The notes under the pieces are model-generated. The model was not told the DNA's origin. It did no database searches and saw only the letters and a list, made by a program, of their open reading frames with translations. From Eledone cirrhosa (lineage: Eukaryota), in contig OZ024741.1 in the NCBI GenBank assembly GCA_964016885.1, positions 376,278,001 through 376,342,000 of the forward strand: DNA of 64,000 nucleotides, read 5' to 3'. The stretch's first letter is position 1. Every line of letters begins with the position of its first letter. This document shows, piece after piece, positions 2,593 to 48,511 of the stretch. Position numbers and translations under genes: made by a program.

Positions 2593-2777
2593 CAGATAGG
2601 GTTGGTAAAATACCAGGTGGACCATAACCCACCACAGTACTCCACTACTTGGGGTAGTAGATTGGGTAATATGAAAAAATTCAGGACCCCGACAGTTAGT
2701 ATTAATGGCGCTTTAGCTCGGATCTAGCTGTCGAAACGGCCGGAGCTCATCTGTCGGGGTCCTGAATATTTTCATAT
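2593..2777 (-). mobile_element. Short fold-back element, PLE pLTR-end-like (family S, diverged copy)
   Basis: Arms atatgaaaaaattcaggaccccgacag (2669-2695) and ctgtcggggtcctgaatattttcatat (2751-2777), plus a tail homologous to the copies at 4678, 18780, 19222, 44305 and 48321. Confidence 0.6.
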
Positions 2778-2880
2778 CTCTCTCTCTCTCCCTCTCTCTC
2801 TCTCTCTCTCTCTCTCTCTCTCTCTCTCTCTCTCTATATATATATATATATATATATATATATATATATATATATATATA

Positions 2881-4650
2881 TTAGAGTGTTCCACACAAAG
2901 CAAGGTCACAATACTCACGCTCCCTGTGTATTTTCCCATTATAAATGCCCCTATTGGTAAAATAAAACATATTTTGTATAAAATAAATTATTTTGAGCCT
3001 GCCTATATCATGGTGATTATAATGGAAAGTGTGATTAGGTTGCATGAAATCATAAAAATGTGAAACCAAATATGACCATACAATAATTGTTTATTTTATT
3101 AATCCATTATATTTAGTAAACCACCTTTGAATATATAGGCGTACAGGGAAGAAACAAGTTCAGTTAAGTTAAGTCCTGTCATATTTTTTTCAGGGTTTCT
3201 ATTTTGAAATCCGGGACCTTGCGACGATGAGCTTCGACTACTTGAACAACACACTGCTTCTCCTCCACATTGTTGGTGATGGTAACAAAATCAGTTATAA
3301 ACTTGACTGCTCTCTCCGCCAGATCGTTGACTACCTTGATATTGTGAACAACAGCACAGGCATTTTGATATGACGCTTGTGATGACCAAGTTGCAGGTGA
3401 CAGCTCAAGCCAAGTATCGTTGAGATCAAGGAGATCGAACAGAAGCCTTGATTTCTTCCCAACTAGATGAGGCAGCTTCGTGGACGACTTCACCTCGGGA
3501 AATACTGGAGCACCACGGTAGAGGCCCAGACGTTGTCGTTTTGATAAGACATTGGACTATTTGTTTCTTCTAGGACTCTTGGACCCGACTTGAAAACAGC
3601 CCTAGCGGAATGGCTTCCTCCGTCAGGTACCAAAGATGCTTGCTCAGAGCAGTAGTGGCTGCCTGCGAGAGATCTCTGTCAACCTTACTGTACTGTGTCA
3701 ACTGCACGTAGAATTGAAGGTCATTGGATGGTGCATCAGCACACTTGACTGCTGTCAGGCAGCATCGCACGTAGAACAGAGCATTGAACATACAGATCCG
3801 GCGCAACTTTTCCATTTTAGCATGATCGTAATTGAGTCGCTCACCAAATGCATACATCTTTGCACTATAGATGATTGTGGACATCCACCGAGCGTTATGA
3901 TGTGCACCAGGCAGCATCCAATGAATTCCACGAGGAGGGGTGACACCAAGCAAGATCAACATCAACATCAACGCAGGGCTTCGACAAATGTAGCATCTTC
4001 CCATTTTCTGATCATTATTACGAAGAAGGTCTTTCAAAATTTTCTTTTCAGCACCAATATGTGCAATGTAGAAATACGAATCCAATTCAGAAATAAATAG
4101 TGCTTCCTTTTCTTTGTTTGACTTAGAACCTTTGTTTTTTTGTAAATTTCTGTATTCACTGTACATGTTCATAATTTTCAGTTTCACTTTGTCTTTTCGT
4201 TGAGTCGCCACACCAACTTTTTCCCACTGACTAACTACTTCCATCACAGGGCTATCCGCAATAGCACCATTGAAGCTCACATGCTTTTCGTGTTTCATAG
4301 GACCATCTTTCAGGTAGCACCATTGAAGCTCACATGCTTTTCGTGTTTCATAGGACCATCTTTCTTAGAACGTCCCCCTTTGTTGGTATTTTCTTTGGTG
4401 AAAAGGATGTAACATATTGCCCCAGGAGCCATATTTCTCAATCATCACAACGGAGCGAGTAGCTACAACTAGGCCCACTGGTTTCCGCCATTATTCTGCC
4501 AATTTGCAACTATTAGGCAAGGCTTAAATTAGTCTGCAATAATCAAAATTACATTATAAATTGATAATATACAAAATGGCATGAGAAAATGTATAGGGAG
4601 CTAAGGGAAAAACAGTTTTGTGTAAAATGTTGTATTCTGGAACACCCTAA
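2881..4650 (-). mobile_element. Internally deleted hATm-like (hAT superfamily) DNA transposon inserted in (TA)n
   Basis: TIRs ttagagtgttcca / tggaacaccctaa. Transposase remnants: PGAHHNARWM, HLWYLTEE and VVNDLAERAVK (ORFs 3570-4298 and 3179-3493). The N-terminus appears joined to the C-terminal half near 4000. Confidence 0.75.
4262..4364. repeat. Direct tandem duplication (~50-bp unit, 53-bp period) inside the hATm element
   Basis: tagcaccattgaagctcacatgcttttcgtgtttcataggaccatctttc occurs at 4262 and 4315. Confidence 0.9.
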
Positions 4651-4677
4651 TATATCTATATATATATATATATATAT

Positions 4678-44879: not shown

Positions 44880-47700
44880 CTTTTCTTTTTCTGCACATCT
44901 CTCACCTGCGCCATGTTGAAGTTGCTCCTCCAGCTCATCCTAACCATCATTGCCCTCTGTAAAGTTCTCTTGCATCCAACAACCAGGCGTCATCTTCACG
45001 TACATCCTTTAGTGTCATTGTTGGTACGCGACTCGTCTGAATACATCAGGTGTCCAAGTCCATTATGACGTTTCACATGTCCTACTAATGCGAGCTTATA
45101 ATATCAGAAAGGTGAGGGTGTGAACCGTAGAGCAATTTATTTGCTATGTGTGTTTCTCAGGAGATATTCTGGATCTTTCTTAGCATTCATGTGAATGTGC
45201 CTTACTCCTTTTTGTGGGCATTTTTTAATGTCACATCTATAGAGAAGAATGGAGTCAACTGTTGCTTTGAATAGCCTCAGATTCGTTGTTTTCTTAATCA
45301 GAGAGGCCACACATGCTCTGTGCTCATGAAACTGCCATGGTATATCATTTCATCTACTTCTTCAATTTCAGAACGATCTAGTGTATGCATTTGTTCATTT
45401 GATGTTGCATTGAGATGCATGAACTTTGATTTGTCAGTATCCAAGATGAATCCATTGGAGTGCGTTGCAGTATCCGTTCTCTGTAATAGGTTTTCAGCTT
45501 CTTTGCTGGTATTTTTCAGGAAACCTATGCCATCTGTGTAAGTCAATTCATGTAGAACATCCTCCGGACATTTCAGCGTTATCCTGTCAGATGGTACATT
45601 CACATTAGGCACTGCATAATCAATGAATATCAGAAACAAAAAGTGGTCAGAGGATCTTACTGGAAGATTCCGATATCAATGGAGAATAAAACTGAGTTTC
45701 CTTAGAATGTTATTATAAGTACTGAAGTATTCTCACACAAGACTTTAACTGCATTGACGATCAGATGAGGTGCCTCATGTACAAGAAGAAATTTGAGTAT
45801 CTTCTTTCGATCTATGGAATCAAATGCCCTCTTCAAATCTATAAATACAATTGCTTCCACCTTGTAATTCCGTACCTCCTAAACAATCTATCTTGGAACC
45901 AAGATGTTTGAGATAGTTGAGTGAAATGGCCGAAATCAATTTTGGCTGGAACATAGACTGTTGTCGATACTTGGTCTGAATGTATTTAGATTCATCCTAT
46001 TTTACGTGTTTGCTGCAATTTACGTAGGACTGGTGCCTTTAGAGGTGGTACAGATGGTGAGGTTACTTTTTTGGGTATTGGCACTATTCCTGCTATTGCC
46101 CATTCATCATGCCTGTGATCTTCAAATAATTCGATGCAGAAATCTCTTAGAAACAGGAAAACTTTGGGTAGTTTCAACAGGTCTAGAGTTAGGCCATCAA
46201 ACCTAGGAGCTTTGCATGGCTTCATTGCCTTTAGTGCAATGTCCACTACGTCTATAGAGAAATCTCTGATGCTTACCTCAGGATGGAATTCAAATACTGG
46301 ATTAATAGATATGTCTGGCTCACAATAATTGTCAGCTGATAGGAGTTTGTGCAAGAGCTCGCTCAATGCATCTTATTACCAGAAACTTCTTTACTCAGTC
46401 ACCAAGCTTCTCTGGATCTTTTGTTATTACTATTCTCAAAAAGCACACAGGTTTGGTTGGTTTTCAACGCTCCAGTTTGACGAAAGTATAGTGGTATATT
46501 TTCTGGTGTTGCTTACATCTGAAATCGTAGATGTGAGGATGTCGCTTCAAACTATAGCCATTGTTACACTTTCCACAATGGGTCTGGCACGACGGGGGGC
46601 GTCTTGGTAAGCGTTTCTTACCCACTTCATTCTAGACAGACGTAACTGAAGTATAATGTTTCTCTTCAGCCATAAAGAATTCGAATTTATAAGCAATTGA
46701 GCCATCATTTGTTCTTATATGGTTGAAATCGCCCCATGGCACACTTCAGTTAAGCTGCTTCTTATTGGATCACCTATTTGAGCGAAGGATGTGTTTAACT
46801 TTGGCTGTATGATGCTGTGATCTACAACCGCAGAGGAAGTATGTGACTCACTATCAAGAATGCTGTTTCGCCATCGTTTCCCGCAAATGATAAAATCAAT
46901 TTAAGAAAGATTCCCAGTTGGGTCCTCAAGAAAAAAGTTTCCATTTCGGTTTCTGGAAAATGGTATTCCCGGTTAGGAGATTATCTTTATGAAGAAACTC
47001 TTCAAGAAATATGCCGTTTCTGTTAGTATTTTGTGGTATGAAATTTGTGCCTCTAATTTGCGCGTTGAAATCTCCTCCAGTAATTAGCATGGCATATGGG
47101 GGTACTTGTGAAATAGTGTCACTCAGTTGATAGTAAATCTCTCCTACTTCCACGCCGCGCAGATGTTTGCAAAGTGAATAATCTACAACAAATTTTGAGA
47201 TTTCCCTTGAATACTGTTGAAAATATCTGGCCATTGAACTTAATTACATTTGTAAGTAGAGAAAGGAGATGTGTTTGTACTGTGAAACCAACTGCTCCAA
47301 TTGCAGCACTGATGGCACTTTTGGATTTGATGCAGTAAACAATGCTTTGACCGATGTAATAGGTGATTATGTCTGGATAATCTTCTTTGTGGATACATTG
47401 GTGTTCTTCAACAACTCACGGGAAAAGTAGGATGTGAGTGAGCGGCAGTTTAGAGAGCCGAAGGTGTATGATCTCTTTGGTCGAGATAGTTCCCTCTTAG
47501 TTCTGATATCGGAAGATGCTCTTCCAGGTAGATTTAGAACATCAACTTCATAGGTAGAGGTTGAGCTTTCTTCAGGACAATTCCTGGACAGAGAATCACG
47601 AACTTTAACATTAGAGCCGTTGTCTAAATCAATTATGTATTATTCTATTAGCGGTAATACTGAGATAACTTGCCACGACTTTCACAAGCGGGGTGCCTCT
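44880..47700 (-). mobile_element. Decayed near full-length RTE-clade LINE
   Basis: APE remnants (TFGSLNCR, GGDFNAQI, NRNG) and RT remnants (IVPIPKK, FIDLKRAFDSIDR, YTDGI); many disruptions. Confidence 0.7.
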
Positions 47701-48320
47701 ACCATTTATCTAACCATCTAAACATTCATCTATGTAAACAAGCGCTGAAAACTGAAACGACTGTTTATCACTGTTCACTTTTCAGCCCAAATCACCATAC
47801 CTGCTTCCCGGGTTGATCTTTGCGTAGGCCACTCGGGTGGCTGCCCACTACTATACCTTACCGAATGGCAACCTGTTTTGTGAAAAGAGCTATACTTTTG
47901 TATGTGTGTGTGTGTTTGTGTGTGTGTTGTTATACGTCCGTACAAAGCTAAGAAGAAATGTGTGTGTATATGTGAGTAAAAGAGTTTGTGTGCATGTAAG
48001 TACGAAGTTATGAGCAAAAGTATGTTAATATAAAAGTTTGTATGTGTTTATACAGAGCAGTGAAGTGAAAAGTGGAGTGAGCATATATAGTCAGCCGACC
48101 GCCACCTTCTCATTAATTTTCTACTTTGTTCCACCTATATCCCCGTCCTCGCGCAATCAACCATCGATTAATATATATATATTCTTGATAGTGAGCCACA
48201 TACTTCCTCTGCGGTTGTAGGAGTAGATCACAACATCATTACAGCCAAAGTTAAACACAACCTTCGCTCATATATATATATATATATATATATATATATA
48301 TATATATATATATATATATA

Positions 48321-48511
48321 GTAACAAGTATGACCCCGACGGCAGAGCTCAAGCCGTTTCGAATGCTAACTCAGTGCAGAATTAGCCGTCGAAACGTCTT
48401 GAGCTTTGCCGTCGGGGTCATACTTGTTCCTATTACCCACTCTACTACGCTAAGTATTAAGTACTTTGGTGCGTTACGGTCCATCTGGTTCCTTGCCACA
48501 TTTCCTTCGTT
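48321..48511 (+). mobile_element. Short fold-back element, family S
   Basis: Hairpin aacaagtatgaccccgacggc...gccgtcggggtcatacttgtt plus the shared tail, in (TA)n. Confidence 0.75.

What the first reader, a model, noticed from the sequence alone, without database searches (positions are those of the whole stretch)
2593..48511. (TA)n-targeting PLE families carrying hammerhead ribozymes share one fold-back rule
Seen: about 7 sequence-unrelated families (S; 9999-12836; 18079-18705; 29315-30985; T at 31720/43456; 31917-35503; 43852-44095), nearly all in or abutting (TA)n. Six carry a type I HHR motif, four of them with a palindromic helix III (caattg twice, cgatcg, acatgt); family S has only a partial motif. 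In the five families with fold-backs, one copy has a full 3' tail. The inverted copy stops at or next to a TA about 20-45 nt past the predicted cleavage site. Established: PLEs carry minimal HHRs thought to act as dimers via palindromic helix III, and can have inverted pLTRs lacking the tail. Inference: the two ends of a cut (TA)n target each prime reverse transcription, one at the RNA 3' end and one at an internal TA. Overlapping arms require two templates, such as an HHR-linked RNA dimer or a tandem pLTR. The non-overlapping 31720 copy looks like twin priming on one RNA.
Basis: partly seen in the sequence, partly recalled or inferred. Interest (0 to 1): 0.75.

Follow-up and report, generated by a model that had tools for sequence, protein, structure and literature searches.

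The report
Two-ended insertions of Hydra-type Penelope elements
These back-to-back repeats in TA runs are insertions of several Penelope-type jumping-gene families that almost always carry the short 'tail' on exactly one arm, likely because both ends of the cut DNA are copied from one RNA at two start sites marked by small hairpins rather than by the ribozyme.

Summary
The seven families are real. S, P, T and U are Hydra-clade Penelope-like elements (PLEs). S has an intact, very young parent (717-aa ORF, tandem arrays). Each family has two fixed 3' ends, both joined to (TA)n: 89 of 99 ends in unselected DNA, against 6.9% background. Of 126 same-family head-to-head pairs, 123 have one tailed and one tail-less arm and none has two tails. 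Junctions vary, so each is made afresh.

The end lies 20 to 207 nt past the predicted cleavage site, but 6-12 nt before a bulged RCTC/GAGY hairpin at 9 of 13 starts tested (background 0.6%). The tail end is also internal, not the RNA 3' end. Short S copies lack the ribozyme's 5' half, so a ribozyme-linked dimer is not needed.

Best model: both DNA ends prime at two hairpin-marked sites, probably on one RNA. The same-molecule test was inconclusive.

Known in print: the clade, TA targeting, one-sided tail and internal initiation. Not found in my 7 searches: the strict pairing and the hairpins. This scan reported similar readings before, in this genome and others; the hairpin lead came from those notes.

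The parts
18781..18970 (+). Family S fold-back: inverted tail-less arm 18781-18834, tailed arm about 18837-18970; a short copy of the leader of an autonomous Hydra-clade PLE
18899..18922 (+). Bulged hairpin (ACTC.TACT..AGTA(TT)GAGT) 8 nt after the S tail-less start site
4678..4825 (+). S fold-back whose tailed arm starts near the predicted HHR cleavage site
48320..48511 (+). S fold-back, older subfamily
44306..44431 (+). S solo tailed arm between TA runs
2593..2777 (-). Diverged S-type fold-back, tailed arm on the minus strand; (TC)n then (TA)n at the tail-less end
19222..19378 (-). Diverged S-type copy
9999..11274 (-). Family Q tailed arm; hairpin at 10047-10067; HHR-like core CCGACGA near 10161-10167
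11480..12836 (+). Family Q tail-less arm with a SINE-like repeat inserted at 12169-12340; core at 12745-12751
18079..18399 (-). Family R tail-less arm (the longer arm)
18399..18705 (+). Family R tailed arm; core CCGAAGA 18457-18463; hairpin 18548-18581
29315..29946 (-). Family P tailed arm; canonical minimal HHR (core 29441-29447); hairpin 29356-29375
29947..30986 (+). Family P tail-less arm (longer), with decayed thumb/linker/endonuclease coding sequence, 34% identical to the S ORF
31710..31858 (.). Family T non-overlapping pair: tail-only arm (minus, to 31798) joined to tail-less arm (plus, from 31799, core CAGAAGA)
43443..43650 (.). Family T fold-back: tailed arm minus, tail-less arm plus
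31918..35503 (-). Family U: decayed near-full Hydra-type element, tailed end at 31918, HHR with a long helix II (core 32219-32225); a SINE-like repeat inserted at 33058-33243
43655..44070 (-). Family V tail-less arm with canonical HHR (core 44003-44009); clade not tested
44072..44203 (+).

Best explanation
These are head-to-head insertions of (TA)n-targeting Penelope-like elements, mostly Hydra clade, with one tailed and one tail-less arm, likely made when both 3' ends of a cut TA repeat prime reverse transcription at two fixed internal UA sites of what is probably one RNA. Each start is predicted to be set by a bulged RCTC/GAGY hairpin 6-12 nt downstream, bound by one copy of the RT-endonuclease, so the tail is the distance between the two hairpins. 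The RT has no evident RNase H, so the downstream enzyme would displace the upstream cDNA (overlapping arms) or stall at it (non-overlapping arms). The two cDNAs then join by microhomology. In S the start sites lie in the leader upstream of the ORF. Transcripts from the element's own predicted start therefore give only ~190-bp hairpins, and longer-than-unit RNA gives full and tandem copies. The hammerhead is a neighbour, not the ruler. Shown: two ends, pairing, variable junctions, TA joints, hairpin positions, the parent element. Inferred: double nicking, two enzymes, one RNA, displacement, transcription start.
For: Pairing: 123 of 126 same-family pairs are mixed, 0 tail/tail. In 800 kb of unselected DNA, 17 of 17 pairs are mixed. 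12 of 12 further long same-family pairs whose far ends were closed are mixed.
Junctions: variable, with fillers and microhomology.
Alleles: arms of one S insertion share minor alleles 119 times, against 33.9 in permutations (max 51 of 500). R gave 38 against 8.6 (max 27). In 3 of 4 young long S insertions with enough differences, the short arm is closer to its own long arm than to any other insertion.
Hairpin: found at 9 of 12 starts in S, P, Q, R, T and U, with different inner stems; background 0.57%. The same hairpin can be read in the coral Hydra-2_Amil sequence in the PMC8557442 supplement.
Read-through: sequence continues past the tail in S, R and T.
S 5' ends: 46 of 90 tailed arms and 39 of 60 tail-less arms begin 33-45 nt before the cleavage site. 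A non-templated G precedes the presumed start in 10 of 16 non-T cases (p=0.016).
Chimeras: 2 of 3 cross-family chimeras are tail/tail.
Literature: PMC11167929 shows nicking and extension of both strands and two internal starts in vitro.
Against: The same-molecule test is mixed. Two sites in one insertion link the short arm to the terminal unit only (B280), but three sites in two others do not (B271, L282). Allele sharing was not above permutation in T (2 vs 1.4), and in P and U it did not exceed the permutation maximum. Sharing could also reflect one source active at a time, or arm homogenisation. Three chimeras prove that two RNAs can meet at one break, and one of them (L283) is tail-less plus tailed, like same-family pairs. 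The hairpin was not found after the tail in P, Q and U (one or two read-through copies each), nor in V, which still shows a mixed pair. Tailed arms stop at the tail-less start only modestly more often than chance (5 of 24, p=0.023). In PMC11167929 the start sites did not differ between strands. About 19 S pairs came from a tail-only query and could not show tail-less/tail-less. Ends that BLAST left as 'other' were classed by eye. No biochemical test was done.
Confidence: 0.6

Rival explanations
1. Two RNAs from the same source in an asymmetric complex: one enzyme is forced to use the first hairpin and the other the second, without any ribozyme role.
For: Cross-family chimeras and template jumps show two RNAs at one break. 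L283 is a mixed chimera. Three discordant sites between short and terminal long arms.
Against: No source of asymmetry is known. 2 of 3 chimeras are tail/tail against 0 of 126 same-family pairs. B280 shares two alleles with the terminal unit only.
Confidence: 0.22
2. One reading: two RNAs held together by a hammerhead dimer (palindromic helix III), one primed at the RNA 3' end and one at an internal TA near the cleavage site.
For: Palindromic helix III or loop in P, R, U, V and S. Minimal HHRs act as dimers (PMC4209133).
Against: A symmetric dimer predicts like-with-like pairs (0 tail/tail in 126). The tail end is internal. The distance to cleavage is 20-207 nt. Most S arms lack the first core strand. 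Q and T lack the palindrome and still follow the rule. HHR mutants did not affect insertion in vitro (PMC11167929).
Confidence: 0.07
3. One cDNA folds back or self-primes (possibly on an antisense template), and the endonuclease trims the second arm at its own TA, as proposed in PMC3846280 and PMC8557442.
For: Small palindromes and fillers at junctions. Arms share alleles.
Against: The tail-less arm reaches further 5' in 44 of 123 pairs and can be kilobases longer. 18 pairs do not overlap at all. Chimeras are not explained.
Confidence: 0.08
4. S and T are MITE-like hairpins copied as fixed units.
For: 28 of 30 top S hits are identical, including the apex. Many T hits share one apex.
Against: Those queries contained the apex. 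A tail-only query gave varied apices, and the commonest apex appears in two subfamilies. Arms co-vary. The parent is an RT element.
Confidence: 0.03

Closest known systems
Hydra clade of C-terminal endonuclease PLEs, e.g. Hydra-1_Obim (PMC8557442; seen: passages, section 11, supplement passages and part 2)
   Same: Single ORF with RW(R/K), DKT, CxCX5C, CxxC and CxH motifs; (TA)n targets; HHR near the 3' end; one Repbase member has a 5' inverted copy.
   Different: New families. Cores U3-A8, U4C and U4A, whereas every Hydra row of the HHR table has a ctga core. Strict pairing and start-site hairpins are not described in the parts read.
Canonical PLE insertion anatomy: inverted 5'-truncated copy plus a 30-40-bp tail at one end (PMC8557442 Fig. 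2 legend; PMC3846280, passages and Discussion)
   Same: Head-to-head arms, tail on one side, microhomology and palindromes at the junction.
   Different: Tails here are 45-166 bp. Either arm may be the long one. Pairing is counted here. Those papers propose self-priming or endonuclease resolution.
Poseidon PAc of Anolis in vitro (PMC11167929; parts 1-2 of 4 read)
   Same: Both strands nicked and extended, two internal RT starts define the tail, HHR cleavage dispensable, sequence 3' of the start required.
   Different: PAc starts lie inside the ORF and are not homologous to the primer. Here the starts lie in the leader and carry UA. No one-of-each pairing was reported there.
L1 twin priming (PMC12016303, passages)
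   Same: Both DNA ends prime on one RNA, giving a 5' inversion; short overlaps (median 12 bp) occur.
   Different: The L1 internal start is spread along the element and overlaps are short. Here both starts are fixed and overlaps reach kilobases.
Minimal type I hammerheads of PLEs (PMC4209133, parts 1-2 of 4 read) and non-LTR retrozymes (10.64898/2026.07.22.740005, part 1 of 5 read)
   Same: Short palindromic helix III; U3-A8 variant known from Schistosoma; opposite-strand HHR pairs 100-700 bp apart already noted.
   Different: S copies are truncated products of a coding element, not tandem non-coding retrozymes.

Membership tests
Hydra-clade PLE (family S parent) | Single ORF of telomerase-like RT with a C-terminal GIY-YIG-type endonuclease | tested here: met
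   717-aa ORF; model pLDDT 93.5 with TERT as best fold match. The endonuclease is read from its YIG motif and from PF01541 on the top homolog. Pfam gave no hit on the ORF itself.
Hydra-clade PLE (family S parent) | RWK motif and DKG changed to DKT | tested here: met
   RWR and DKT in the ORF, compared by eye with section 11 and Hydra-1_Obim.
Hydra-clade PLE (S, P, U) | CxCX5C linker, no CCHH, CxxC and CxH near the C-terminus | tested here: met
   CNCPDRSIC, CNLC and CKH in S; the same linker in the P and U frames.
Hydra-clade PLE | Insertion into (TA)n | tested here: met
   89 of 99 ends against 6.9% background.
Hydra-clade PLE | Canonical HHR near the 3' end | tested here: inconclusive
   Canonical core in P and U; U3-A8 in S; U4 changed in T, Q and R.
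Hydra-clade PLE | Placement in the Hydra clade of an RT tree | not tested
   No tree was built.
Hydra-clade PLE (Q, R, V) | Own Hydra-type ORF | tested here: inconclusive
   tblastn with the S ORF hit P, T and U references but not Q, R or V, whose references are short 3' pieces. Q and R share the hairpin; V does not.
Type I hammerhead ribozyme | Conserved core CUGANGA..GAAA..NUH with three helices | tested here: inconclusive
   Met by inspection for P, U and V; variant cores in S, Q, R and T; stem I of Q is weak; MFE folds did not give the hammerhead shape in most families; no Rfam hammerhead among 150 matches shown.
Type I hammerhead ribozyme | Self-cleavage, as monomer or dimer | not testable with these tools
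   Needs transcripts. A few S arms begin within 4 nt of the predicted site (5 of 90), which is only a hint.
L1-type twin priming | Both cDNAs from one RNA molecule | tested here: inconclusive
   Same source lineage shown; same molecule mixed.
MITE / fixed-hairpin element | Element copied as a unit with a fixed centre | tested here: not met
   Apex varies and arms co-vary.
Non-LTR retrozyme | Tandem non-coding HHR units | tested here: not met
   S tandem units are 3.5 kb and coding. Not examined for Q, R or V.

The most novel reading that the evidence does not exclude
Hydra PLEs integrate by a programmed two-enzyme reaction on one RNA. Twin leader hairpins, read downstream of the template like a telomerase boundary element, place one RT on each end of a cut TA repeat. 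The RT also reiterates its first template bases and so lengthens or creates flanking microsatellites. This would explain the PLE tail, the inverted arm and a class of very abundant short hairpin repeats with one mechanism, testable with the intact young element found here.
Probability: 0.4. Interest if true: 0.72.

Novelty: new member of a known kind. Interest (0 to 1): 0.5.

Why it matters
How PLEs make their inverted arms and one-sided tails is stated as an open question in PMC8557442 and PMC3846280, and only one PLE works in vitro (PMC11167929). A near-strict one-of-each rule, a candidate cis signal at both starts and an intact, recently active element give a direct experiment. The result also reclassifies a very common ~190-bp hairpin repeat, which pipelines could call a MITE, as a by-product of retrotransposition. 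There were 26 tailed S ends in 800 kb, roughly 10^5 genome-wide if the four regions sampled are typical. The clade, its target and the basic anatomy are already published, which limits the surprise.

Tried and rejected
- Rfam scan: only microsatellite-driven miRNA-type matches among those shown.
- Pfam: no family on the P or U frames or on the S ORF. PDB sequence search: nothing significant.
- Homodimer prediction of S ORF residues 1-490: 'no answer', score 0.00, alignment not used; not evidence either way.
- Sequencing runs: no RNA holder listed. Contigs of four runs laid on the S leader show loose (TA)n ends at both termini and much higher summed depth between the presumed start and the tail end, but such depth is no copy number and the best run may be the source sample.
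- MFE fold of the S leader was not better than shuffles (z -1.04).
- Automatic end-calling for V failed because of its internal microsatellite and palindromic anchor, so V was left out of all tallies.
- L051 first looked like an S/P chimera and is an S/S non-overlapping pair beside a P copy. Several other cross-family junction calls were SINE inserts or probably a family's own ORF and were dropped: 3 kept of 11 rows listed plus L228 read by eye.
- A supplement search for variant cores returned only chance matches.
- The hammerhead-distance rule, the MITE reading and simple snap-back were rejected as above.
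Full report
Setting. The window lies on contig C2 of a 3.0-Gb animal genome, probably an octopus (inferred). It is rich in TA runs. I name the families S (18781 and relatives), Q (9999-12836), R (18079-18705), P (29315-30985), T (31710, 43443), U (31918-35503) and V (43655-44203).

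Observation. The arms and tails are in the sequence as described. Searches of the genome gave 599-2070 candidates per query; 40 were scored and 30 loci fetched each time. In S, P, Q, R, T and U nearly all terminal ends fall at two positions, a tail-less and a tailed end; T's tail-less end wobbles over a few neighbouring TAs. In 800 kb of unselected DNA, 89 of 99 such ends have (TA)4 or more within 24 nt, against 6.9% of random positions. At least four of the ten misses are read-through into the parent leader.

Pairing. After removing 29 S copies found with a full-length query, 126 same-family head-to-head pairs remained: 123 tail plus tail-less, 3 without a tail (L019, L167, L238; two of these have one broken end) and 0 with two tails. 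Ends that BLAST stopped early or over-extended were classed by eye. About 19 S pairs came from a tail-only query. The unselected DNA alone gave 17 of 17 mixed pairs. Of 15 extra stretches fetched to close long insertions, 12 gave mixed same-family pairs, 2 were chimeras and 1 ended in a gap. The tail-less arm reaches further 5' in 44 of 123 pairs (18 non-overlapping), the tailed arm in 16, and 63 are within 8 nt; the last figure is inflated for T by a short reference. Junctions differ between copies and carry microhomology or filler. The arms are therefore two separate first-strand cDNAs, not a fixed hairpin or a snap-back copy.

Identity. A fragment caught in one S junction led to the parent: a 3542-bp unit in tandem arrays, 96-100% identical between copies, with an intact 717-aa ORF. 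It has the Hydra diagnostics listed in PMC8557442 section 11 and resembles Hydra-1_Obim in that paper's supplement. Its model is confident and its best fold match is telomerase RT. P, T and U carry homologous coding remnants (32-49% identity); the short Q, R and V references gave no hit. Hydra elements are already reported to insert in (TA)n and to carry HHRs.

Hammerheads. Family-wide cores are P CTGAGGA, U CTGAAGA, V CTGATGA, S TTGAGAA, Q CCGACGA, R CCGAAGA and T CAGAAGA, each conserved in 31-54 copies. U3-A8 is a known PLE variant (PMC4209133). U4C lowers activity in vitro (PMC3088659 passage). Activity is untested. The tail-less end lies 20 (S), 21 (T), 26 (Q), 38 (P), 44 (R), 66 (U) and 207 (V) nt past the predicted cleavage site, so cleavage is not the ruler.

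What marks the ends. Earlier notes of this scan pointed to a bulged hairpin near the ends, and I tested that lead. An RCTC-stem-(1-2 nt bulge)-GAGY hairpin begins 6-12 nt after the start at 9 of 13 sites: after both ends in S, R and T, and after the tail-less end in P, Q and U. It was not found after the tail in P, Q and U (one or two read-through copies each) nor in V. Background is 0.57%; a stricter rule found 4 of 6 tail-less sites in S, P, Q, R, T and U against 0.3%. Inner stems differ between families. Every start has TA at the joint. In S, R and T the tail continues into the second hairpin and an ORF start, so both starts are internal, as for Poseidon in vitro (PMC11167929).

Why S is short. 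Most S arms begin 33-45 nt before the cleavage site, inside helix II (46 of 90 tailed, 39 of 60 tail-less), at an initiator-like TTAGTC (consensus recalled, not tested). A non-templated G precedes this point in 10 of 16 non-T cases, as a copied cap would give (p=0.016; some entries are two arms of one insertion). Transcripts from this start would lack the first half of the hammerhead, yet they give the commonest fold-backs.

One RNA or two. Arms of one insertion share alleles beyond permutation in S and R, not in T, and only marginally in P and U. Young long S arms match their own partner best in 3 of 4 informative cases. That shows one source, not one molecule. Site-level evidence is split, two sites for and three against. 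Three cross-family chimeras (L048 P/S, L228 U/Q-like, L283 T/S) show that two RNAs can meet at one break. Two of them are tail/tail, a pairing never seen within families. L1 twin priming shows that cDNAs from one RNA can overlap (PMC12016303). I favour one RNA read at two hairpin-set registers (0.6) over an asymmetric two-RNA complex (0.22), and both over the ribozyme-dimer (0.07) and self-priming (0.08) models.

Novelty. The clade, target, ribozyme, inverted copy, one-sided tail and internal initiation are published (PMC8557442, PMC3846280, PMC4209133, PMC11167929). Seven literature searches found no count of the pairing and no description of the start-site hairpins. Subscription papers, including older Penelope work and the dimer-cleavage study known to me only by title, were not searchable; most of the PMC8557442 supplement was not read. 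An octopus repeat annotation (PMC13282606, passages) does not discuss these structures. The scan itself has recorded similar readings many times in this genome and in others.

Noticed in passing
L052, L054 (P); L123, L125, L126, L139 (R); L221, L224 (U); L162, L020 (T); L084 (S); window 2777-2835: Short repeats made of the element's own last bases sit between the end and the TA run: (CT)n, (ATCT)n, (TAT)n, or a 9-nt duplication. This suggests reiterative, telomerase-like copying at initiation.
   Followed up: no
L272:9170-10000 and L273:1-2741 (G000:C1 about 91.489-91.493 Mb): About 65 head-to-tail copies of a 55-bp piece of the S ORF fill the junction of a 4.5-unit fold-back, as if the RT circled a mini-template.
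   Followed up: no
L286:7549-8089; L290:1349-1863; L064:1500-1870; L084:1260-1590: Mini-tandems in which the cDNA jumps from the presumed RNA 5' end to a point 160-230 nt past the tail, implying short leader RNAs and template jumps or circles.
   Followed up: partly
G000:C1 about 200.1757-200.1764 Mb: Same-strand chimera: a T arm continues into P sequence at P's tail-less start site.
   Followed up: no
window 48809-52270 and 39425-41756 (minus): L1/Tx1-like non-LTR elements (named from recalled motifs); the first has an open 1153-aa endonuclease-RT frame.
   Followed up: no
window 12169-12340, 15146-15336, 24556-24766, 33058-33243, 38909-39119, 61064-61244: A dispersed SINE-like repeat of about 180 bp, often nested inside the PLE arms.
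   Followed up: no
window 4992-5984: A separate 358-bp inverted repeat (97% identical) with (GA)n/(TC)n arms, unrelated to the seven families.
   Followed up: no
window 31040-31700 and 45300-47250 (minus): Decayed RTE-like LINE fragments (named from recall); the T copy at 31710 abuts one of them, not a TA run.
   Followed up: no
window 3179-4364 (minus): Broken frames resembling a DNA-transposon transposase, with a 53-bp duplication at 4262-4364.
   Followed up: no
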